A DNA stretch of 8,410 nucleotides from a virus. Its lineage: Duplodnaviria > Heunggongvirae > Uroviricota > Caudoviricetes. The DNA lies in the IMG/VR virus record IMGVR_UViG_2690316318_000015; one strand, given 5' to 3'. Shown here piece after piece: positions 1 through 8,410 of the stretch (position 1 is the stretch's first letter; every line of letters begins with the position of its first letter). The notes under the pieces are model-generated. The model had not been told where the DNA came from. It was given only the letters and a program-made list of their open reading frames with translations, and did not search any database. A program made the translations under genes and the position numbers.

Positions 1-458
1 GTGTCCGCCCCATAAACATTCATCGAAAACATTTGAACAATATGACCACTTGGTAACTGAAACCAGTTTTTAAAAAAAAAAAATGCAGACAGGGAATATA
101 AACCTTCACGGGAATCATAATCAGTCGTCATATAGTTAGACGTATTATCAGAAACAGTTTCTGTCGGTCTGGTAACCAGACGATAAGAGCCAGTGGTTGG
201 TGATCTGACCAGACCAAAACTTTCAACCAGAGTGGCTTTTTGAAAGCTTAATAATCCCCGACCACTGTCAGCTCCACGCCCGTCATCCCAGCCACGAATA
301 AACTCACCGCGTAAATCAGGTAATTTATTTGTTGGATAAGCCTTTGCCAGTTCCGGGTATTCTTCAGCAGAAAATGCCGCACCGTTGCATTTCAGCCAGC
401 CTGTTGGCGGTGTGACTGAAGGCCATGGAACAGGCACACCAACAGGTAATGCAGAGCC
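1..458 (-). CDS. Tail-fibre variable C-terminal segment (Sv1), silent copy next to pin copy 1; 3' end runs off the window start
   Basis: Minus-strand translation from the crossover site reads ...[66 protein letters not shown]...FGLVRSPTTGSYRLV...KNWFQLPSGHIVQMFSMNVYGADT, resembling remembered Mu S / P1 S / e14 Stf variable parts. A fortuitous ATG in the pin-upstream region (about 510-512) is in frame. No stop within the window. Confidence 0.55.
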
Positions 459-484
459 TTCTCCCAAACCAACGTTTATGAAAA
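459..484. other. pix-type recombination crossover site, copy 1 (TTCTCCCAAACCAACGTTTATGAAAA), 50 bp upstream of pin copy 1
   Basis: 26-bp imperfect dyad (half-sites TTCTCCCAAACC and TTTTCATAAACG around a central AA) in the position and form expected for Hin/Gin/Cin/Pin sites. The left half continues into a tail-fibre variable segment, the right half into the pin leader. Confidence 0.7.
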
Positions 485-533
485 TGCAGAAATAACGGCT
501 AACTGGCATCATCTCTGGTTTTTATTCAGAGGG

Positions 534-1094
534 ATGATCATGCTTATTGGCTATGTACGCGTGTCAACAAATGACCAGAACACCGATTTGCAACGTAATG
601 CACTGAACTGCGCGGGATGTGAGCGGATTTTTGAGGATAAAATCAGTGGAACTAAGTCCGACAGACCAGGACTGAAAAAACTGCTCAGGACATTATTGGC
701 AGGTGACACGCTGGTGGTCTGGAAACTGGACCGACTGGGGCGCAGTATGCGGCATCTTGTCGTGCTGGTGGAGGAGTTGCGCGAACGAGGCATTAACTTT
801 CGTAGTCTGACGGATTCAATTGATACCAGTACCCCAATGGGGCGCTTTTTTTTTCATGTGATGGGTGCCCTGGCTGAAATGGAGCGTGAACTGATTGTTG
901 AACGAACAAAAGCTGGACTGGAAGCTGCTCGCGCACAGGGACGAATTGGTGGACGTCGTCCCAAACTTACACCAGAACAATGGGAACAGGCCGGACGATT
1001 AATTGCATCAGGAGTTCCTCGCCAGAAGGTGGCGATCATCTATGATGTTGGTGTGTCAACTTTGTATAAGATGTTTCCTGCAGGGGATAAATAA
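534..1094 (+). CDS. pin: Serine-recombinase DNA invertase Pin (Hin/Gin/Cin/Pin family), copy 1
   Basis: 186-aa ORF; MLIGYVRVSTNDQ (catalytic Ser region), LVVWKLDRLGRS, GINFRSLTDSIDTSTPMGRFFFHVMGALAEMERELIVERT and a C-terminal helix-turn-helix are family hallmarks. GAGGG lies 5-9 nt before the second ATG (540), so the true start may be there (184 aa). Confidence 0.92.
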   Translation: MIMLIGYVRVSTNDQNTDLQRNALNCAGCERIFEDKISGTKSDRPGLKKLLRTLLAGDTLVVWKLDRLGRSMRHLVVLVEELRERGINFRSLTDSIDTSTPMGRFFFHVMGALAEMERELIVERTKAGLEAARAQGRIGGRRPKLTPEQWEQAGRLIASGVPRQKVAIIYDVGVSTLYKMFPAGDK

Positions 1095-1200
1095 AGTTAA
1101 AGTCACTTTGTGTACAAAAGAAAATAAAACAACAGCAACTTGTTGCAATTTTATCAATAAAAGTAGTATTGTCGTAAAAAATTGATTAAAGATTAATATT

Positions 1201-1576
1201 ATGCATGTTTTTGATAATAATGGAATTGAACTGAAAGCTGAGTGTTTGATAGGTGAAGAGGATGGTGTTTATGGTCTAATCCTTGAGTCGTGGGGGCCGG
1301 GTGACAGAAACAAAGATTACAATATCGCTCTTGATTATATCATTGAACGGTTGGTTGATTCTGGTGTATCCCAAGTCGTAGTATATCTGGCGTCATCATC
1401 AGTCAGAAAACATATGCATTCTTTGGATGAAAGAAAAATCCATCCTGGTGAATATTTTACTTTGATTGGTAATAGCCCCCGCGATATACGCTTGAAGATG
1501 TGTGGTTATCAGGCTTATTTTAGTCGTACGGGGAGAAAGGAAATTCCTTCCGGCAATAGAACGAAACGAATATTGA
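1201..1576 (+). pseudogene. mcrA: mcrA 5' fragment (first ~125 codons), then the ORF reads through antisense tail-fibre sequence to a stop at 1623
   Basis: First 125 residues identical to the full-length 277-aa ORF at 3649..4482; identity ends abruptly at 1576/1577. The remaining 15 codons are antisense of the tail-fibre segment. Confidence 0.85.
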
Positions 1577-2133
1577 CTGACCAGACCAAAACTTTCAACC
1601 AGAGTGGCTTTTTGAAAGCTTAATAATCCCCGACCACTGTCAGCTCCACGCCCGTCATCCCAGCCACGAATAAACTCACCGCGTAAATCAGGTAATTTAT
1701 TTGTTGGATAAGCCTTTGCCAGTTCCGGGTATTCTTCAGCAGAAAATGCCGCACCGTTGCATTTCAGCCAGCCTGTTGGCGGTGTGACTGAAGGCCATGG
1801 AACAGGCACACCAACAGGTAATGCAGAGCCTTCTCCCAAACCAAGGTTTTCGAGAGCCGTTTTCACCGTGCCATCCGATTTGATATCGCCAAACGGATTC
1901 TTGCGGCTTAACAGCAGCGCACGAAGCGCGGTAAGCAGCTGGTCATGCCGCCCCTTCTCCAGGCTGGCACCGGATGCCTCCACCACGCTGCAGAGTTCTT
2001 CCTGCAACATGTCAAAGTAGTCATCATCCAGATCGGTGGCAGGTGTGCCGGTCTGGGGGTTACCACGGGTAAAACCGTTCTTACCCGCGCCGAACTTATC
2101 CTTCTGCGCGGTTTTCGTGTCTATACGATGCAT
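1399..2133 (-). CDS. Chimeric tail-fibre ORF: constant N-terminal part (2133..1857) joined across a pix site to the first ~84 codons of variable segment Sv1 (1856..1577), then antisense-mcrA read-through (1576..1399)
   Basis: N-terminus [46 protein letters not shown]... is the start I associate with e14 StfP-type tail fibres. The crossover site encodes ...ALENLGLGE, followed by [51 protein letters not shown]. Homology to the Sv1 copy at 205..458 stops at 1577. Confidence 0.6.
1831..1856. other. pix-type crossover site, copy 3 (TTCTCCCAAACCAAGGTTTTCGAGAG), inside the tail-fibre reading frame
   Basis: Shares the TTCTCCCAAACCAA half with sites 1 and 2 in the same orientation; the other half continues into the tail-fibre constant part. 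Confidence 0.65.
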
Positions 2134-2136
2134 GGA

Positions 2137-2320
2137 TTACTCCGGATATTTAAAAATTACGTAGGTATGCGAAGGGCAGAGTTTGTTAAGCACACACTCG
2201 ACAACGGTGTCGCCCCAGATACGCAGTGCGGAATCACAGGGATCGCCACATGTCATCCAGGTGGTGTTGGTGGCGGCTGGCATGTTGACCTGCCAGTAAT
2301 ACCGCCATTCCGGCGCATTC
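2137..2320 (-). other. Possible 3' end of the phage tail gene upstream of the tail-fibre gene; very uncertain
   Basis: Minus-strand frame ...[61 protein letters not shown] ends one codon before the tail-fibre ATG. No recognisable motif; called from position only. Confidence 0.25.
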
Positions 2321-2569
2321 ACATCTTTCTGATTCTGCCTGTTGAATAAGTTCTTCATGTGATGGTTGAGGTATTTCAGCCCATGTGGGAAAACCATTTA
2401 CCCCTGCAACTCGGATTTTCCCTTGTGGCGGTTCCGCCATATATTTTACAGAAATGTTATCAGGAATATCTAATGCATCAGCGGGCCATGTTCCATTTAC
2501 TTCATAAGTATTTTTTAAATTAACAGCATAAAATGCATTTTCCGAAGGGGAATAAATATATTGATTCAT
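2234..2569 (-). pseudogene. Tail-fibre assembly chaperone (Tfa) gene, N-terminal ~82 codons only (2569..2324); the rest of the ORF is unrelated sequence
   Basis: AGGAAG Shine-Dalgarno then ATG directly after the Sv2 stop. Residues 60-81 (...[23 protein letters not shown]) resemble the conserved mid-region of P2 G / Mu U / lambda Tfa; the next 29 codons do not look Tfa-like. Confidence 0.5.
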
Positions 2570-2570
2570 A

Positions 2571-2960
2571 TTATCTTCCTATTGCGATAATCATAGTTCC
2601 ATACAAACCATTTCCGGTTGATACTTTTAAGGTTACTGATGTCCTTGTTGTCGTGTACCCCATAAGTTTAAAGGTCGGAGCAGCCGTTAATGTGCCATCA
2701 GACCATAAGGCACTAACAGCAAGTGCACCTGAAGGAAATGCAATAGGGAAATTACCAGTAGTTCCGTTAGTGTCCGCCCCATAAACATTCATCGAAAACA
2801 TTTGAACAATATGACCACTTGGTAACTGAAACCAGTTTTTGCCAGATGGAAATGCAGACATATCTGGTATCTGATTTTCTCCTGTTCCCACATTCCGTTT
2901 TGCCGCTTCTCCCAAACCAACGTTTATGAAAATGCAGAAATAACGGCTAACTGGCATCAT
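2571..2960 (-). CDS. Tail-fibre variable C-terminal segment Sv2, silent copy next to pin copy 2 (variable part 2571..2906; leader 2933..2960 comes from the pin-upstream region)
   Basis: Translation MMPVSRYFCIFINVGLGE-AAKRNVGTGENQIPDMSAFPSGKNWFQLPSGHIVQMFSMNVYGADTNGTTGNFPIAFPSGALAVSALWSDGTLTAAPTFKLMGYTTTRTSVTLKVSTGNGLYGTMIIAIGR; the C-terminus is typical of Mu/P1/e14 tail-fibre tips. Shares about 30 residues with the Sv1 copy at 1..91. Confidence 0.65.
   Translation of the reverse strand: MMPVSRYFCIFINVGLGEAAKRNVGTGENQIPDMSAFPSGKNWFQLPSGHIVQMFSMNVYGADTNGTTGNFPIAFPSGALAVSALWSDGTLTAAPTFKLMGYTTTRTSVTLKVSTGNGLYGTMIIAIGR
2907..2932. other. pix-type crossover site, copy 2 (TTCTCCCAAACCAACGTTTATGAAAA), 50 bp upstream of pin copy 2
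   Basis: Identical to site 1 and in the same orientation. Confidence 0.7.
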
Positions 2961-2981
2961 CTCTGGTTTTTATTCAGAGGG

Positions 2982-3542
2982 ATGATCATGCTTATTGGCT
3001 ATGTACGCGTGTCAACAAATGACCAGAACACCGATTTGCAACGTAATGCACTGAACTGCGCGGGATGTGAGCGGATTTTTGAGGATAAAATCAGTGGAAC
3101 TAAGTCCGACAGACCAGGACTGAAAAAACTGCTCAGGACATTATTGGCAGGTGACACGCTGGTGGTCTGGAAACTGGACCGACTGGGGCGCAGTATGCGG
3201 CATCTTGTCGTGCTGGTGGAGGAGTTGCGCGAACGAGGCATTAACTTTCGTAGTCTGACGGATTCAATTGATACCAGTACCCCAATGGGGCGCTTTTTTT
3301 TTCATGTGATGGGTGCCCTGGCTGAAATGGAGCGTGAACTGATTGTTGAACGAACAAAAGCTGGACTGGAAGCTGCTCGCGCACAGGGACGAATTGGTGG
3401 ACGTCGTCCCAAACTTACACCAGAACAATGGGAACAGGCCGGACGATTAATTGCATCAGGAGTTCCTCGCCAGAAGGTGGCGATCATCTATGATGTTGGT
3501 GTGTCAACTTTGTATAAGATGTTTCCTGCAGGGGATAAATAA
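2982..3542 (+). CDS. pin: Serine-recombinase DNA invertase Pin, copy 2 (identical protein to copy 1)
   Basis: Same 186-aa translation as 534..1094; sits in the canonical position between a tail-fibre variable segment and mcrA. Confidence 0.92.
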   Translation: MIMLIGYVRVSTNDQNTDLQRNALNCAGCERIFEDKISGTKSDRPGLKKLLRTLLAGDTLVVWKLDRLGRSMRHLVVLVEELRERGINFRSLTDSIDTSTPMGRFFFHVMGALAEMERELIVERTKAGLEAARAQGRIGGRRPKLTPEQWEQAGRLIASGVPRQKVAIIYDVGVSTLYKMFPAGDK

Positions 3543-3648
3543 AGTTAAAGTCACTTTGTGTACAAAAGAAAATAAAACAACAGCAACTTGTTGCAATTTT
3601 ATCAATAAAAGTAGTATTGTCGTAAAAAATTGATTAAAGATTAATATT

Positions 3649-4482
3649 ATGCATGTTTTTGATAATAATGGAATTGAACTGAAAGCTGAGTGTTTGATAG
3701 GTGAAGAGGATGGTGTTTATGGTCTAATCCTTGAGTCGTGGGGGCCGGGTGACAGAAACAAAGATTACAATATCGCTCTTGATTATATCATTGAACGGTT
3801 GGTTGATTCTGGTGTATCCCAAGTCGTAGTATATCTGGCGTCATCATCAGTCAGAAAACATATGCATTCTTTGGATGAAAGAAAAATCCATCCTGGTGAA
3901 TATTTTACTTTGATTGGTAATAGCCCCCGCGATATACGCTTGAAGATGTGTGGTTATCAGGCTTATTTTAGTCGTACGGGGAGAAAGGAAATTCCTTCCG
4001 GCAATAGAACGAAACGAATATTGATAAATGTTCCAGGTATTTATAGTGACAGTTTTTGGGTGTCTATAATACGTGGAGAACTATCAGAGCTTTCTCAGCC
4101 TACAGATGATGAATCGCTTCTGAATATGAGGGTTAGTAAATTAATTAAGAAAACGTTGAGTCAGCCCGAGGGCTCCAGGAAACCAGTTGAGGTAGAAAGA
4201 CTACAAAAAGTTTATGTCCGAGATCCGATGGTAAAAGCTTGGATTTTACAGCAAAGTAAAGGTATATGTGAAAACTGTGGTAAAAATGCTCCGTTTTATT
4301 TAAATGATGGAAGCCCATACTTGGAAGTGCATCATGTAATTCCCCTGTCTTCAGGTGGTGCTGATACAACAGATAACTGTGTTGCCCTTTGTCCGAATTG
4401 TCATAGAGAATTGCACTATAGTAAAAATGCAAAAGAACTAATCGAGATGCTTTACGTTAATATAAACCGATTACAGAAATAA
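3649..4482 (+). CDS. mcrA: McrA, methylcytosine-directed type IV restriction endonuclease (HNH nuclease), full length
   Basis: 277 aa, the length of E. coli K-12 McrA, and the N-terminus matches my recollection of it. C-terminal HNH motif CENCGKNAPFYLNDGSPYLEVHHVIPLSSGGADTTDNCVALCPNCHRELH. AT-rich relative to pin, sits next to pin as in e14. Confidence 0.9.
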   Translation: MHVFDNNGIELKAECLIGEEDGVYGLILESWGPGDRNKDYNIALDYIIERLVDSGVSQVVVYLASSSVRKHMHSLDERKIHPGEYFTLIGNSPRDIRLKMCGYQAYFSRTGRKEIPSGNRTKRILINVPGIYSDSFWVSIIRGELSELSQPTDDESLLNMRVSKLIKKTLSQPEGSRKPVEVERLQKVYVRDPMVKAWILQQSKGICENCGKNAPFYLNDGSPYLEVHHVIPLSSGGADTTDNCVALCPNCHRELHYSKNAKELIEMLYVNINRLQK

Positions 4483-4715
4483 AATTGTTTATTAAAGTCA
4501 CATTTAAGACGTAATACCCTACAGGGTAAAAATTTTCTCTGATCTTAACTTCTGCAAATGTTAACTGCTATTTTTATGCTAAAAATGGTTATCAAAACTC
4601 AAAAACACATGTTTATAATCAATGAGTTATAGAAATGCTAAGGGCTAATGAGTTATATGCAAATTAGTAAAATTATGTTGCTATCTCAAATAGTTACGAT
4701 TTAGTCATCTAACTA

Positions 4716-4829
4716 ATGCTGCGCCATATGGGTTGGACTGAAGCAGCTGACCTGATTGTTAAAGGTATGGAAGGCGCTAAACTGCTGAAATGTTCAGAGT
4801 TTGGTGATGCGATCATCGAAAATATGTAA
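4716..4829 (+). pseudogene. icd: Displaced 3' end of icd (icdC-like fragment) marking the prophage/chromosome junction
   Basis: Translation [37 protein letters not shown] matches the remembered C-terminus of E. coli Icd. No upstream icd sequence; followed by a hairpin terminator. Confidence 0.75.
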
Positions 4830-4852
4830 TTACCACATGTGTTAAATATTAT

Positions 4853-4880
4853 AACGGGCGTATAACACGCCCGTTGTTTT
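4853..4880 (+). terminator. Rho-independent terminator (icd terminator)
   Basis: 9-bp perfect stem AACGGGCGT / ACGCCCGTT, 5-nt loop, then GTTTT; 24 nt after the icd-fragment stop. Confidence 0.6.
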
Positions 4881-4962
4881 ATGATGATGTAAAATCTTCC
4901 CCAAAACTTCCCCAAAACTGGCTATTTTCTATGCTGTTTTGATATCTACGATAACCCGGTAT

Positions 4963-5895
4963 TTACAGAGTTTCCTCAAAGAATGGAGCTAATACTGAAA
5001 TCGCTTCAGCCACATAGGCTTTGCCGTCATAGAGGTCCATATGGTTAGCGCCTTCAACAATGTGATAGCGTTTATCCTGACTTGATGCTCGATCGTACAG
5101 GTCGTCACTCATCCATTTACTTCCTGCCAGACTGCCCGCCACAATCTGCATCGGCTGAGTCAGGTACACTTCCGCCATATGGTAAGCATCATAGGTAATC
5201 ATCTGGTTAAGGCTGCGCAAAGTAGCGTAACCCGGTGCTGTTGGATACTGCGCGCGAGAGGTGTGGTAATACTCCCAGGCCTGACGCAGTTCTTCGTTCG
5301 GCGCATCGGACTCTTTCATTGGCGCCAGTGGCATAATGGCGTATTCTCCGCTGCTAATATCGCTGGTTCGGGCGTTTGAACCCGCTTCAATGTGTGGCAG
5401 AGCATCAATAGATTTCACATTGTTTTCCCAACCATTGCGGAACATCGAACCAATATTGACCGCACTAACGGTGCCGATAGCCTTGATGCGGCGATCCTGA
5501 ATTGCAGCATTGGCTGTATATCCTGCACCAGCACAAATTCCCATCGCACCAATTCGGGCATTGTCGACATAAGAAAGTGTTGTCAGGTAATCAATTACGG
5601 CACTGACGTCTTCAGTACGAATGTATGGGTTTTCTAACTGACGCGGCTCGCCGCCGCTTTCACCTTGATAAGATGCGTCATAAGCAATAGTGACAAATCC
5701 CTTTTCCGCCAGTTTTTCGGCATAGGTTCCGGCCGTTTGCTCTTTAACGCCCCCACCAGGGTGAGATACCACAATTGCCGGATACTGACGGGTTTCATCA
5801 AATTGGGGAGGGAAATAGATCACAGCAGACAAAGAGATGGTTGGATTATTGCTGTTAGTGAAGCTGACTTTATTATTCATCATTCTGTTCCTCAT
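4963..5895 (-). CDS. Alpha/beta-fold hydrolase (dienelactone-hydrolase / S9-peptidase-like) with a likely Cys nucleophile
   Basis: 310-aa ORF; probable start at the second ATG (about 5883, 306 aa) which has an AGGA Shine-Dalgarno. VVSHPGGG oxyanion-type motif and nucleophile elbow GAMGICAGAGY (G-x-C-x-G), with a downstream EGANHMD His motif. Size and pairing with a 299-aa LysR gene recall K-12 ycjY/pgrR, but I cannot confirm that from memory. Confidence 0.8.
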   Translation of the reverse strand: MRNRMMNNKVSFTNSNNPTISLSAVIYFPPQFDETRQYPAIVVSHPGGGVKEQTAGTYAEKLAEKGFVTIAYDASYQGESGGEPRQLENPYIRTEDVSAVIDYLTTLSYVDNARIGAMGICAGAGYTANAAIQDRRIKAIGTVSAVNIGSMFRNGWENNVKSIDALPHIEAGSNARTSDISSGEYAIMPLAPMKESDAPNEELRQAWEYYHTSRAQYPTAPGYATLRSLNQMITYDAYHMAEVYLTQPMQIVAGSLAGSKWMSDDLYDRASSQDKRYHIVEGANHMDLYDGKAYVAEAISVLAPFFEETL

Positions 5896-5982
5896 GGCGT
5901 TGCCGGTTCGTTTTAACGGCTGGTGATATCACTATAGATATTGATCATTAAGTTGATTAGACCCAAAATCATGATTGGACCT

Positions 5983-5996
5983 ATCATTTAAATGAT
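5983..5996. promoter_or_regulatory. Perfect 14-bp palindrome ATCATTTAAATGAT in the divergent hydrolase/LysR intergenic region; candidate LysR-type regulator binding site
   Basis: Self-complementary and AT-rich, about 25 bp upstream of the LysR start, in the position where LysR regulators usually bind their own divergent promoter. Confidence 0.35.
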
Positions 5997-6020
5997 TAAT
6001 AGATTGTATAGAGATACTGA

Positions 6021-6919
6021 ATGAAGCGTGAAGAAATCGCTGATCTGATGGCATTCGTCGTCGTTGCAGAGGAGCGTAGCTTCACTCGCGCAGCAGTCCG
6101 CTTGGGCATGGCGCAGTCAGCTTTAAGCCAGATAGTGCGTCGTATAGAAGAACGATTGGGATTGCGGCTCCTGACGCGAACCACGCGTAGCGTTGTGCCA
6201 ACTGAAGCGGGCGAACATCTTTTATCTGTTCTTGGCCCGATGTTGCATGACATAGATTCAGCCCTGTCATCCCTGAGTGAGCTGCAGAATCGCCCATCCG
6301 GGACAATACGTATTACTACAGTAGAACATGCAGCAAAGACGATACTGCTACCAGCCATGCGCACATTCCTGAAATCGCATCCTGAAATTGATATTCAGCT
6401 TACCATTGATTATGGTTTGACCGATGTCGTTTCTGAACGTTTTGATGCAGGTGTCCGTCTGGGAGGGGAGGTGGATAAAGATATGATTGCCATTCGAATC
6501 GGGCCTGATATACCAATGGCTATTGTTGGCTCACCGGATTATTTTTCCCGCCGAAGCGTTCCAACGTCAGTGTCACAATTAATAGACCATCAGGCCATTA
6601 ATTTGTATCTTCCCACATCGGGTACAGCGAATCGCTGGCGATTAATACGTGGTGGACGTGAGGTTCGTGTTCGCATGGAAGGTCAGCTTTTACTGAATAC
6701 GATAGATCTGATCATTGATGCTGCAATTGATGGGCACGGATTAGCGTATCTACCTCATGATCAGGTTGAGCGGGCGATTAAAGAAAAAAACTGATACGTG
6801 TTCTGGATAAATTCACACCAGACTTACCCGGTTATCACCTGTACTATCCACACCGTCGGCATGCTGGCTCGGCATTCTCCTTATTTATAGATAGGCTGAA
6901 GTATAAAGGCGCTGTTTAG
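6021..6919 (+). pseudogene. LysR-family transcriptional regulator, interrupted by a +1 frameshift in an A7 run (6784..6790); intact length would be 299 aa
   Basis: N-terminal HTH (ERSFTRAAVRLGMAQSALSQIVRRIEERLGLRLLTRTTRSVVPTEAG) and co-inducer-domain layout. The ORF stops at 6794, but the +1 frame continues LIRVLDKFTPDLPGYHLYYPHRRHAGSAFSLFIDRLKYKGAV* to 6919, which is a typical LysR C-terminus. Confidence 0.75.
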
Positions 6920-7504
6920 TTTTGCTTGATGATACGTTGATTTCATTTTTCCCTTAACGTGTTCACAGTTCCTTTCGACGTTTTAGTTATTTTTTCTTCT
7001 TCATACAATGGCGGCAATTACTTTCTTTTATTTTTATTATCGTGGATGTTAATACCAGAACTTCTGACCCTACGATGCATGTTTTTTGTATATTATCTGT
7101 ATCAGGCAAAGAGTGGCGCAAATTGTGGATGGTGGGGGAGTATAACCCGGAAGAGTTTACATTTTTGAACGGTATTTTTTGTAATGTAAAGGAAAATCTG
7201 TGTCGGAATGATCGCTATTTGGGTGCAGATGGCAGAAGGAGTGGGGAAATAAATAATAATTCTACGATGATATTATTTGGTTGTATCGGTTAGTGATGAA
7301 CTCAGGTCGCCAGATGCTGCACTATCTCCGGCGTGGATGATGCTTTCAGTCTCAGACTTACTGACATCGCTCAATGGGATTCTTTCGTCCTCAGTGAGCG
7401 CATCGAAACCATAACTAACCAATTGAATAGCCTGCAAGAGTATGTGAGATCACAGTGTTCATATTAGAAAAGTCTTATCATAAGATTTTTTATATGGATG
7501 CATT

Positions 7505-7891
7505 ATGTCTCAATACGCTCGTGCCGCTTTAATTGCTTATAATTTGGTTGCCGATAAATCAATGTCTCCTCGTGAGGCTTGGGACGCCGCTGTTGCTAAG
7601 GTTACAAAAAGCGAATCCTCAAGAAAGAAGGGATGCCCAAGGGCAACGTTTCTCGCCTTGGCGGATTGCGGTTATCTGAAGAATGTAGAACCACAGTATG
7701 GGGAGAAAAAAGGCGGTAAGTTGTACCAAAGGGCGGTTGAAGTTGCGAATCTGATTCTTGATTTACCCGGAATTAGCAAAGCTGAGTTAGTTGATAAAAC
7801 TTGCTATAAAGACGGGCAAGGGTCTTATGACATTGTGCTAACACTCGCTCAGTGCGGATTTCTCCAACGCCCTCAGCAAGATATTAAGTGA
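7505..7891 (+). CDS. Hypothetical protein, 128 aa, no family recognised
   Basis: Clean ORF with even codon usage, followed 8 nt later by a hairpin and T-tract. Two related Cys-containing motifs (FLALADCGYL and LTLAQCGFL) about 65 residues apart suggest an internal duplication. No clear Shine-Dalgarno. Confidence 0.5.
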   Translation: MSQYARAALIAYNLVADKSMSPREAWDAAVAKVTKSESSRKKGCPRATFLALADCGYLKNVEPQYGEKKGGKLYQRAVEVANLILDLPGISKAELVDKTCYKDGQGSYDIVLTLAQCGFLQRPQQDIK

Positions 7892-7898
7892 TTTATGG

Positions 7899-7921
7899 CC
7901 TCGCTGTTAGCGGGGTTTTTT
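7899..7921 (+). terminator. Rho-independent terminator after the 128-aa ORF
   Basis: 6-bp stem CCTCGC / GCGGGG (one G-U pair), loop TGTTA, then TTTTTT. Confidence 0.5.
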
Positions 7922-7930
7922 CATATCTGA

Positions 7931-8062
7931 ATCTCACCACCGGATGCACTGACTGGCTTCGTGGCTGTTTTCAACAGTGAGGAGGCATCGTGGCATCTCG
8001 TTGAAGACCCGCGGGGTAAGACTGTCAGTGGCGTGGCTTCAGGTAATGCGCTATCCCTTTAA
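7931..8062 (+). pseudogene. Remnant of a lambda-type tail-fibre assembly gene (tfa), internal ~43 codons only
   Basis: Frame reads [43 protein letters not shown], close to the remembered lambda Tfa mid-region (...[39 protein letters not shown]...). No start codon and the C-terminal half is missing. Confidence 0.65.
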
Positions 8063-8064
8063 AA

Positions 8065-8081
8065 GGGAGGTTATACCTCCC
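8065..8081. terminator. Hairpin GGGAGG-TTATA-CCTCCC containing the acetyltransferase stop codon; possible bidirectional terminator
   Basis: Perfect 6-bp GC-rich stem flanked by AAAA upstream and TTTCTTT downstream on the + strand. Confidence 0.45.
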
Positions 8082-8320
8082 TTTCTTTGCAAACGTTAAC
8101 TTTCTTAGTATAGCAAATCGAATTTGAGGGTATATCCTTATTTACAAATGTAAAAGCACCAATTTTTACATTATCACCTATAGTAATGTTATCTGCGATA
8201 ATACAGGAGTTCGCTCCAATATTTACATTGTCACCAATGCTAATTCTATTAGTATTGTTGTTTTTTAAGCCAATTGTTGTGTTTTGCCTTATATTGAAGT
8301 TTCTACCAATTGTGGCATAT
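8071..8320 (-). pseudogene. Hexapeptide-repeat (left-handed beta-helix) acetyltransferase, 3' fragment of ~83 codons, 5' end removed by the IS insertion
   Basis: Minus-strand translation YATIGRNFNIRQNTTIGLKNNNTNRISIGDNVNIGANSCIIADNITIGDNVKIGAFTFVNKDIPSNSICYTKKVNVCKEREV* has the [LIV]-G-x-x-x-x periodicity and a typical C-terminus. Very AT-rich. No start codon; the frame ends at the IS junction. Confidence 0.65.
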
Positions 8321-8410
8321 TGATCCTACCCATGTAATATGGACACAAGCCTAAGCGAGGTTCTGATTTTCAAATTGTTCCGGACTGAGACCGCCACACC
8401 AACTGTGCCG
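8321..8410 (-). mobile_element. Right end of an IS3-family element (terminal inverted repeat plus the last codons of transposase orfB); the rest lies beyond the window
   Basis: Reverse complement ...CAGTTGGTGTGGCGGTCTCAGTCCGGAACAATTTGAAAATCAGAACCTCGCTTAGGCTTGTGTCCATATTACATGGGTAGGATCA closely matches the remembered right end of IS3 (a few mismatches). Terminal TGATC...; minus-strand frame ends ...SWCGGLSPEQFENQNLA* with stop at 8351..8353. Confidence 0.7.

What the first reader, a model, noticed from the sequence alone, without database searches (positions are those of the whole stretch)
7294..7925. 128-aa protein of unknown family with an internal duplicated Cys motif, in an AT-rich island among prophage debris
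ORF 7505..7891 looks like a real gene (balanced composition, adjacent terminator) but I cannot place it in any family. It sits between a degraded AT-rich stretch and a tfa remnant, a typical location for phage moron or accessory genes such as defence or anti-defence factors and small regulators. A possible small acidic ORF on the minus strand just upstream (about 7294..7460, TTG start only, ...LVSYGFDALTEDERIPLSDVSKSETESIIHAGDSAASGDLSSSL...) could be a partner, but that is weak.
Basis: inference. Interest (0 to 1): 0.5.

Follow-up and report, generated by a model that had tools for sequence, protein, structure and literature searches.

The report
Uncharacterised DUF6979 gene, prophage remnant
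The 128-residue ORF is a real, selectively maintained gene of the catalogued but functionally unknown DUF6979 family, normally carried next to the lysis genes of lambda-like phages and here the only intact survivor of an old prophage remnant fixed in the Escherichia albertii chromosome; the proposed minus-strand partner ORF is an artefact.

Summary
ORF 7505..7891 (+) is a real gene with an intrinsic terminator (7897-7917). The exact protein is already annotated "DUF6979 family protein" in Escherichia albertii. In lambdoid phages (SfI, mEp460, many E. coli prophages) the gene flanks the lysis cassette. Here the cassette has decayed: 7326-7467 holds 3' fragments of Rz and embedded Rz1 on the + strand, so the "acidic minus-strand ORF" is their antisense shadow. 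A tfa fragment follows at 7935-8054. The remnant lies at a fixed site near icd, whether or not the neighbouring e14-like prophage is present, and the ORF is constrained (pN/pS 0.31 against 0.84 for the Rz fragment). The internal duplication is real at profile level (hhalign E 1e-5): two three-helix, HTH-like repeats. Only Cys44 is conserved, within an invariant K-x-C-P motif, so there is no Cys4 metal site. The family is basic (pI ~9.3), has no conserved partner across 54 lineages, and has no whole-fold analogue in PDB or BFVD. Most likely it is an autonomous small nucleic-acid-binding accessory protein with a reactive cysteine. Its function remains unknown, and a defence or anti-defence role is neither supported nor excluded.

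The parts
7505..7891 (+). DUF6979-family gene (128 aa plus stop): two tandem three-helix repeats (residues ~3-58 and ~72-120) and an invariant K42-x-C44-P45 at the N-cap of helix 43-54
   Evidence: ORF; Pfam PF22399 99.9 bits, full length; phrog_5039 E 4e-65; exact match to E. albertii proteins; AF2 pLDDT 87.3 and 87.6; conservation; pN/pS 0.31
7897..7923 (+). intrinsic-terminator-like hairpin (GGCCTCGCT-GTT-AGCGGGGTT) followed by a T-run, 6 nt after the stop codon
   Evidence: conserved in the E. coli prophage copy (alignment A1)
7326..7467 (+). 3' remnant of the Rz i-spanin gene (last ~44 codons, ORF 7333..7467); homology to E. coli prophages starts at 7326
   Evidence: phrog_13 E 8e-10, profile positions 111-153 of 154; DNA alignment A1; blastn 7326-7939 = L001 6001-6615 at 91.9%; called as a PF03245 Phage_lysis fragment in other E. 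albertii strains
7328..7414 (+). 3' remnant of the embedded Rz1 o-spanin gene (+1 frame relative to Rz), with the proline-rich stretch mutated (PPPPPAWMMLPAPDLLTPLNGI becomes ALSPAWMMLSVSDLLTSLNGI)
   Evidence: phrog_3198 E 2e-5, profile positions 38-64 of 68; intact Rz1 in E. coli M18 for comparison
   Evidence: overlaps two + strand coding frames; the homologous antisense ORF is open inside the intact Rz/Rz1 of E. coli M18, and both hit phrog_17757 (unknown function); no Pfam, NCBIfam or PADLOC hit
7469..7481 (.). perfect 6-1-6 palindrome TCTTATcATAAGA in the 37-nt spacer between the Rz stop and the DUF6979 start; significance unknown
   Evidence: read from the sequence and found as the best inverted repeat upstream; identical in the E. 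coli copy; upstream palindromes are not clearly a family feature
7935..8054 (+). tail-fibre assembly (tfa) gene fragment; right-hand piece of the same decayed lambdoid prophage
   Evidence: 84% identity to annotated tail fiber assembly protein genes in E. coli; 80% identity to the tfa gene of the E. coli M18 prophage that also carries DUF6979

Best explanation
The ORF encodes a member of the DUF6979 / phrog_5039 family, a stand-alone accessory gene that lambda-like temperate phages carry in the late operon beside the lysis cassette (after Rz, or between the Q antiterminator and the holin). In this E. albertii window the surrounding prophage has decayed to fragments (Rz', Rz1', tfa'). The DUF6979 gene and its terminator have been kept intact under purifying selection at a fixed chromosomal site near icd, so it is a domesticated phage gene. 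These points are shown. The inferred mechanism is that it acts alone, without a dedicated partner, by binding nucleic acid or another polyanionic or nucleotide ligand. Binding would use a conserved patch formed by the basic loop S-x-S-S-R-K-K-G, the invariant Cys44-Pro45 at a helix N-terminus (a position that favours a reactive thiolate) and the invariant Trp26. In phages it would be made late, together with the lysis proteins. What it achieves biologically (regulation, protection of phage DNA, counter-defence) is not known.
For: - Family membership: Pfam 99.9 bits, full length; phrog_5039 E 4e-65; 595 clusters at 50% identity in an exhaustive search, nearly all 120-140 aa single-domain proteins; exact protein annotated DUF6979 in E. 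albertii.
- Phage position: S-R-Rz-orf65-HNH in phage SfI; mEp460; nine isolated lambdoid phages; E. coli prophages; upstream of the holin in Edwardsiella and other prophages.
- Remnant status and fixed locus.
- Selection: all 18 haplotypes intact; pN/pS 0.31 between E. albertii and E. coli alleles against 0.84 for the adjacent Rz fragment.
- Structure: two independent AF2 runs, pLDDT 87.3 and 87.6, identical secondary structure; the only two beta-bridge residues are L58 and L120, so they must pair with each other.
- Internal repeat: hhalign E 1.1e-5.
- Basic character: median pI 9.28 and net charge +5 over 228 proteins.
- Invariant residues: C44 100%, P45 99%, K42 and W26 98%.
- No partner.
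Against: - No experiment or paper exists for the family.
- Helix 43-54, which would be the 'recognition helix' of repeat 1, is largely hydrophobic and carries conserved acidic or small residues on its other positions (family consensus CPrxaFLgLce.G). That is atypical for a DNA-reading helix.
- No convincing sigma-70 promoter lies just upstream in the window, so expression in E. albertii is unproven.
- pN/pS of 0.3 is only moderate constraint, and the Rz comparison rests on few sites.
Confidence: 0.4

Rival explanations
1. It is a small thiol-dependent enzyme or carrier rather than a nucleic-acid binder. Cys44 at the helix N-cap, flanked by Lys42 and Trp26, would be a catalytic nucleophile, redox-active or persulfide-carrying residue, or a ligand (for example heme or metal) attachment site, acting on a small molecule or a host protein.
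For: Cys44 is conserved in all of 229 sequences across many phyla, with Pro45, Lys42 and Trp26 at 98-99%. The conserved loop S-x-S-S-R-K-K-G is an insertion specific to repeat 1, as expected for an added active-site loop. The helix that follows is mostly hydrophobic, not a typical DNA-reading helix. Reactive cysteines at helix N-termini followed by Pro are known in peroxiredoxins and TusA (from my general knowledge, not tested here). Many chromosomal contexts are metabolic.
Against: There is no sequence or structural match to any enzyme family. At about 125 aa and all-helical, the protein has no obvious cofactor-binding fold. The second common Cys (position 53, 76%) lies nine residues further along the same helix, on the opposite face, so there is no chelating or disulfide pair (inference from helix geometry). 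The strongly basic pI across the family fits polyanion binding better.
Confidence: 0.2
2. It is a phage counter-defence or defence factor: a single-gene module expressed from prophages or late in infection that blocks, or provides, immunity such as restriction-modification.
For: It occupies the two classical accessory-gene slots of the lambdoid late operon and is patchily distributed (248 of 5426 E. coli genomes). In some lineages it lies at the 3' end of a type I R-M operon with a GmrSD-like gene, next to MZB (DUF1998) and PLD-nuclease genes, or among ParDE and Fic genes in a prophage. Scattered immediate neighbours include SIR2, S_4TM, NERD and colicin-immunity domains. It is retained in a dead prophage.
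Against: No PADLOC model matches. No neighbour family recurs in 54 independent lineages. Many contexts are plain housekeeping operons. It is not acidic like DNA-mimic anti-restriction proteins (pI ~9). It is absent from plasmids. No literature exists.
Confidence: 0.2
3. It is a late-stage phage helper tied to lysis or packaging, for example a cytoplasmic regulator of holin or spanin timing or a cofactor of the terminase/HNH machinery, and the E. albertii copy is simply a not-yet-decayed leftover.
For: In every enterobacterial phage or prophage examined it flanks the lysis cassette and is co-oriented with it, 37-38 nt after Rz. In SfI the next gene is the packaging-associated HNH endonuclease.
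Against: The family is widespread in non-phage chromosomal contexts across many phyla. It sits next to different, unrelated packaging modules. Most lambdoid phages lack it: only 9 records in the phage collection and 4.6% of E. coli genomes carry it. In E. albertii it is kept intact under purifying selection although Rz, Rz1, the holin and the terminase genes are gone.
Confidence: 0.1

Closest known systems
DUF6979 (Pfam PF22399) / phrog_5039 proteins, e.g. phage SfI orf65 (AFR52507.1) and E. coli prophage WP_039264502.1
   Same: Full-length homologues (78-92% identity to the enterobacterial copies): same length, same invariant W26 / K42 / C44-P45 / G56, the same terminator, and the same position after Rz in intact phages.
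   Different: The E. albertii allele is 128 rather than 124 aa because the usual TAA stop is CAA. It sits in a decayed remnant rather than a functional prophage. Compared with the wider family, the enterobacterial branch lacks the common Cys53, Asn71, Tyr76, Trp96 and Gln107.
Late-operon morons of lambdoid phages (lambda bor after Rz; stx and orphan methyltransferases between Q and S)
   Same: Same two genomic slots, patchy presence among related phages, its own terminator, and somewhat lower G+C than the host. That bor, stx and similar genes occupy these slots is from my general knowledge.
   Different: No sequence or fold relationship. bor is a lipoprotein on the opposite strand, whereas this is a cytoplasmic basic protein co-oriented with the late operon, and no own promoter was detected.
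Bipartite or tandem helix-turn-helix DNA-binding modules (Tc3 / Sleeping Beauty transposase paired-like domains; winged-helix regulators such as MarR and Lrp/AsnC)
   Different: Scores are in the twilight zone and only per half-domain. No whole-protein match and no Pfam HTH hit. There is a nine-residue conserved loop in place of the tight turn between helices 2 and 3 of repeat 1, and helix 3 is hydrophobic with an invariant Cys-Pro N-cap.
Cys4 zinc-binding small phage regulators (e.g. the P2 Ogr / P4 Delta type), as implied by the 'duplicated Cys motif'
   Same: Small phage-encoded protein with four cysteines in two pairs in this particular allele.
   Different: Three of the four cysteines are not conserved even within Escherichia and Salmonella, and the model is all-helical with no zinc-knuckle. 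It is not a member.

Membership tests
Pfam DUF6979 (PF22399) | Score above the curated gathering threshold (27 bits) over the full-length model | tested here: met
   99.9 bits, E 1.5e-28, residues 1-121 on profile positions 1-127 of 127; all 44 diverse homologues also match
PHROG phrog_5039 (phage protein family, unknown function) | Significant full-length HMM match | tested here: met
   E 4.4e-65, 218.5 bits, 1-124 of 124
DUF6979 family signature derived here | Invariant W26, K42, C44-P45, L52 and G56, and the two-repeat architecture | tested here: met
   All present in the window protein; repeats supported by hhalign E 1.1e-5 and by two AF2 models
Helix-turn-helix / winged-helix DNA-binding superfamily | Significant sequence-profile match to an HTH family | tested here: not met
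   No HTH family above threshold; a single member hits HTH_27 at E 0.22
Helix-turn-helix / winged-helix DNA-binding superfamily | Demonstrated DNA binding | not testable with these tools
   Only indirect evidence: family median pI 9.28
Cys4 / zinc-ribbon type metal-binding proteins | Three or four conserved Cys/His ligands with conserved spacing | tested here: not met
   Only C44 is conserved. C55 becomes S, C100 becomes G, and C117 becomes Y, H, G or K in close relatives. The family-wide second Cys (position 53, 76%) is Ala here
Known anti-phage defence systems (PADLOC-DB v2) | Match to a defence-system protein model | tested here: not met
   0 families at E <= 1
Known anti-phage defence systems (multi-gene) | Conserved partner gene or operon | tested here: not met
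   No neighbour cluster in more than 3 of 54 lineages; no Pfam family in more than 2 of 106 immediate neighbours
Phage moron (accessory gene unit) | Lies between conserved phage modules and is absent from many related phages | tested here: met
   Between Rz and the packaging genes, or between Q and the holin; present in 248 of 5426 E. coli genomes and 9 phage records
Phage moron (accessory gene unit) | Own terminator | tested here: met
   Hairpin plus T-run at 7897-7917, conserved in E. coli
Phage moron (accessory gene unit) | Own promoter, allowing expression from the repressed prophage | tested here: inconclusive
   No consensus-like sigma-70 site within about 250 nt upstream on the + strand; the only + strand site is at 7229-7257, and the number of sites found is no more than the shuffles give
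Rz / Rz1 spanin genes (for the flanking 7326-7467 stretch) | Full-length i-spanin with N-terminal transmembrane segment, and o-spanin with lipobox | tested here: not met
   Only the C-terminal ~44 codons of Rz (profile positions 111-153 of 154) and ~27 codons of Rz1 (38-64 of 68) remain. These are remnants, not genes

The most novel reading that the evidence does not exclude
DUF6979 could be a new class of stand-alone, thiol-dependent nucleic-acid-binding protein with a previously unseen pseudo-dimeric tandem three-helix fold. Temperate phages would express it late to protect or mark their DNA, or to interfere with host immunity or regulation. Bacteria (E. albertii, and lineages where it ends R-M operons) would have repeatedly domesticated it. 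The invariant Lys-x-Cys-Pro / Trp site would then be a new kind of reactive-cysteine nucleic-acid or nucleotide-binding site.
Probability: 0.12. Interest if true: 0.6.

Novelty: already known. Interest (0 to 1): 0.3.

Why it matters
As it stands this is an ordinary annotation case: the protein is already catalogued (Pfam DUF6979, phrog_5039, labelled as such in RefSeq), and the apparent partner ORF is an artefact. Its modest value lies in what is now documented about an uncharacterised family:
- It is broad: at least 595 clusters at 50% identity, across many phyla and in phages.
- It always stands alone, with no conserved partner gene.
- It has an internally duplicated HTH-like architecture with no whole-fold analogue in the PDB or BFVD.
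- It carries an absolutely conserved Cys-Pro at a helix N-terminus.
- It has been kept intact in a dead prophage fixed in E. albertii.

These features make it a reasonable, cheap target for functional work on lambdoid late-operon accessory genes. SfI and mEp460 are tractable phages for that work.

Tried and rejected
- NCBIfam and PADLOC scans of the protein and of the minus-strand ORF gave nothing meaningful.
- A profile search of the diverse alignment against PDB sequences gave only noise (E > 1, a caspase-4 peptide).
- A permissive Pfam scan (E <= 5) of 44 diverse members, looking for a recurring second family, found none.
- Domain fusions as functional clues: ten longer family members carry no second Pfam domain. 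The 350-aa extension of P0172 looked to me like a PD-(D/E)xK nuclease ('TPDFLVF..IIVEVYT') but has no Pfam or PDB match, so I dropped it as evidence. The N-terminal extensions of the others look like over-long ORF calls.
- Conserved partner gene: blastp clustering, phmmer at E < 0.05 and Pfam counts over the neighbours of 54 lineages found none. Only a CHP02642-family gene recurs upstream, in three enterobacterial prophage lineages.
- Autoregulation via an upstream operator: the 6-1-6 palindrome at 7469-7481 is real, but upstream inverted repeats are barely above shuffled controls across the family (mean arm 4.9 against 4.3). Not used as evidence.
- Zinc or metal site from the four cysteines: rejected, because three of them are not conserved.
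- Literature searches for DUF6979, PF22399, phrog_5039, Dd586_1316 and SfI_0065 returned 0 papers.
- The first prevalence figure (1823 genomes) was inflated by flanking Rz and tfa sequence. It is replaced by the ORF-only search, 248 genomes.

Full report
**1. The observation**

The window contains an ATG-started ORF at 7505..7891 (+) encoding 128 aa. A hairpin plus T-run follows at 7897-7917. G+C across 7200-7950 is 0.41-0.45. The protein contains L-A-x-C-G-[YF]-L twice (residues 52-58 and 114-120) and four cysteines. So the raw observation is correct.

**2. Family placement**

- Pfam DUF6979 (PF22399): E 1.5e-28, 99.9 bits against a 27-bit cutoff, covering 1-127 of 127 profile positions.
- phrog_5039, 'unknown function': E 4.4e-65.

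NCBIfam and PADLOC have no model for it. The exact sequence is already in public databases as 'DUF6979 family protein [Escherichia albertii]', on 70 contigs, with near-identical alleles on hundreds more. The window is therefore E. albertii DNA. An IMG/VR contig (L063) is the same locus. No paper mentions the family under any identifier I could think of.

**3. The flanks and the proposed partner ORF**

E. coli prophages carry a copy with 92% DNA identity over window 7326-7940. There the gene lies 38 nt downstream of a lysozyme gene and a 'lysis protein', which is an Rz-like spanin of phrog_13.
- Window 7326-7467 is the last ~44 codons of that Rz gene on the + strand (phrog_13, E 8e-10, profile positions 111-153 of 154).
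- The +1 frame holds the tail of the embedded Rz1 o-spanin (phrog_3198, E 2e-5), with its proline-rich stretch mutated away.
- The same antisense ORF is open inside the intact Rz/Rz1 of E. coli M18, and both copies hit phrog_17757 (unknown function), which from this evidence looks like a family of over-called antisense ORFs.

The minus-strand ORF is therefore an artefact, not a partner.

**4. Genomic setting**

Window 4767-8320 is collinear at 99.5% with E. albertii chromosomes that lack any prophage at icd. In those strains the gene order is:

icd, alpha/beta-hydrolase, LysR, YcgJ fragment, Rz fragment, DUF6979, hexapeptide acetyltransferase, NleG, QueH, OmpT.

The pin/mcrA/tail-fibre genes in the left half of the window belong to a separate e14-like element inserted at icd in some strains, including this window and L109. 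The Rz'-DUF6979-tfa' block is thus a distinct and presumably older lambdoid remnant, fixed in the species, in which DUF6979 is the only intact gene.

**5. Is the gene maintained?**

All 18 haplotypes sampled (E. albertii plus E. coli prophages) keep the ORF open. The E. coli alleles are 124 aa. The E. albertii alleles are 128 aa because the usual TAA stop has become CAA.

| Comparison | pN/pS |
|---|---|
| DUF6979, all alleles | 0.32 |
| DUF6979, E. albertii vs E. coli | 0.31 |
| Adjacent Rz fragment, between groups | 0.84 |

This indicates moderate purifying selection on DUF6979 and near-neutral drift next door. The caveat is that the Rz fragment is short and only two E. albertii alleles were sampled.

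**6. Position in phages**

In isolated phages the order is S-R-Rz-orf65(DUF6979)-HNH-genome end in SfI, and the arrangement is equivalent in mEp460, 4A7 and 'Lambda_4C10'. In IMG/VR prophage contigs the gene lies in one of two places:
- between Rz and several different, unrelated terminase modules, or
- between the Q antiterminator region and the holin (Edwardsiella prophage).

These are the two classic accessory-gene slots of the lambdoid late operon. That bor and stx occupy them is my general knowledge. An ORF-only search finds the gene in 248 of 5426 complete E. coli genomes, always single-copy and chromosomal, and never on plasmids.

**7. The family at large**

An exhaustive profile search finds 595 clusters at 50% identity with E <= 1e-3, nearly all single-domain proteins of 120-140 aa. 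Members occur in Proteobacteria, Bacillota (many in Paenibacillus), Acidobacteriota, Chloroflexota, Bacteroidota, Spirochaetota and others.

I called ORFs in 93 loci representing 54 independent lineages (80% identity clusters).
- No neighbour cluster recurs in more than three lineages by blastp or by phmmer.
- No Pfam family occurs in more than 2 of 106 immediate neighbours.

Contexts are correspondingly varied:

| Context | Locus / lineage |
|---|---|
| Prophage late region | enterobacterial prophages |
| 3' end of a type I R-M operon with a GmrSD-like gene | L117 |
| Next to MZB (DUF1998) and PLD-nuclease genes | L006-L009 |
| Among ParDE and Fic genes in a prophage | Edwardsiella |
| Ordinary metabolic or transport operons | Dickeya, Chloroflexia, Cedecea, a metagenome |

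The protein therefore works without a dedicated partner. Longer family members carry no second known domain.

**8. Sequence and structure**

Conservation over 229 sequences:

| Residue | Conserved in |
|---|---|
| Cys44 | 100% |
| Pro45 | 99% |
| Lys42, Trp26 | 98% |
| Leu52, Gly56 | 97% |
| Phe49 | 94% |

The other three cysteines of this allele vary even among Escherichia and Salmonella copies. The family's common second Cys (position 53, 76%) is Ala here, and it would lie on the opposite face of the same helix from Cys44. So there is no metal-chelating Cys motif.

Two independent AlphaFold2 runs, with 14 and 44 sequences, give the same confident model (pLDDT 87.3 and 87.6, pTM 0.84 and 0.82). 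The helices are 3-16, 22-33, 37-40 and 43-54 in the first half, and 72-86, 92-99 and 107-116 in the second. The only beta-bridge residues are L58 and L120, so they must pair with each other.

A profile-profile comparison of the two halves supports a true internal duplication (E 1.1e-5, 82% probability, residues 8-60 against 77-122). Repeat 1 carries an eight-residue insertion, which is the conserved S-x-S-S-R-K-K-G loop.

Structure comparisons:
- Foldseek finds nothing significant against the PDB (best E 0.95) or BFVD (best E 1.9).
- AFDB was unavailable.

The family is uniformly basic, with median pI 9.28 and net charge +5. The window protein has pI 9.03 and net charge +5.

**9. Interpretation**

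*Shown:*
- The ORF is a real, constrained gene and a member of DUF6979 / phrog_5039.
- It has a phage late-operon origin.
- It is the intact survivor of a fixed, decayed prophage.
- It has an internal duplication and no conserved partner.
- The minus-strand ORF is an artefact.

*Inferred, confidence about 0.4:* the protein is an autonomous, pseudo-dimeric, HTH-like binder of nucleic acid or another polyanionic or nucleotide ligand. Its functional site would be formed by the basic loop, the Cys44-Pro45 helix N-cap (a position favouring a reactive thiolate) and Trp26.

*Rivals:*
- a thiol-dependent enzyme or carrier (0.2)
- a defence or counter-defence factor (0.2)
- a lysis or packaging helper (0.1)

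None can be excluded computationally. The last is weakened by the family's wide non-phage distribution and by its retention without any lysis genes.

**10. Verdict**

This is an already catalogued but functionally unknown family member in an ordinary setting. The 'no family', 'Cys motif' and 'partner ORF' points are not. Interest is modest (0.3). The main open question is what the invariant Lys-x-Cys-Pro / Trp site does.

Noticed in passing
window 205-4024 (458-1576 = 2906-4024; 205-477 = 1577-1849): A 1119-bp perfect direct repeat carries the pin-type invertase gene plus the first ~376 nt of the mcrA-like HNH gene. The window therefore holds two invertase copies and one truncated plus one full mcrA. 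The tail-fibre/tfa segments between them are inverted relative to E. albertii strain L109. It looks like a duplicated or rearranged Pin-invertible region of the e14-like prophage, or an assembly artefact.
   Followed up: partly
window 4716-4774: A 59-nt stretch 95% identical to the 3' end of icd (L108 6171-6229) lies at the right end of the e14-like element. This is the expected attachment-site duplication; chromosomal collinearity resumes at 4767.
   Followed up: partly
window 6021-6794 (A-run near 6790): The LysR-family regulator gene is truncated to 257 aa by a one-base deletion in a poly-A run (A7 here, A8 in L063; 299 aa in L063 and other E. albertii strains). It is either a strain-specific pseudogene or a sequencing error in a homopolymer.
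   Followed up: partly
window ~8071-8320 (-) and 8321-8410: A hexapeptide-repeat acetyltransferase gene (180 aa and intact in other E. albertii strains; 'DapH/DapD/GlmU-related' in E. coli) is cut at 8320/8321 by the end of an IS3-family insertion sequence (95.7% identical to annotated IS3-family elements).
   Followed up: yes
window ~7042-7293 (+): ORF of 83 aa that corresponds in position to gene calls carrying a YcgJ-family (PF05666) hit in other E. albertii strains. It is probably another gene fragment between LysR and the Rz remnant. I did not scan the window ORF against Pfam; against PHROGs it gave only a weak hit (phrog_29029, E 0.036).
   Followed up: partly
window 7469-7481: Perfect 6-1-6 palindrome TCTTATcATAAGA in the short spacer between the Rz stop and the DUF6979 start, identical in E. 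coli prophages. It may be an operator or an RNA hairpin; upstream palindromes are not clearly enriched across the family.
   Followed up: partly
L117 1-7390 (JGI metagenome contig Ga0606624_0000001): A DUF6979 gene starts about 5 nt after hsdM, at the end of a type I R-M operon (HsdR, HsdS, a 266-aa unknown, a GmrSD_N/DUF262 protein, HsdM). This is the tightest link to an immunity system seen in any lineage.
   Followed up: no
L006-L009 ~2900-7800 (metagenomic mobile element with a Rad52-type recombinase): DUF6979 lies in a co-oriented run with a 580-aa MZB (DUF1998) protein, a PLDc_2 nuclease-like protein and three unannotated ORFs (142, 163 and 272 aa). This may be an uncharacterised defence-like cassette.
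   Followed up: no
protein P0172 (476 aa, metagenomic): The only substantial fusion in the family: an N-terminal DUF6979 followed by about 350 residues with a PD..(E)V-like motif ('TPDFLVF...IIVEVYT') that to me suggests a PD-(D/E)xK nuclease. It has no Pfam or PDB match.
   Followed up: partly
L001 5858-6112 (-) and window 7273-7437 (-): phrog_17757 ('unknown function') matches the ORF antisense to Rz/Rz1 (E 1e-15 in E. coli M18). That PHROG is probably a family of spurious antisense gene calls.
   Followed up: partly
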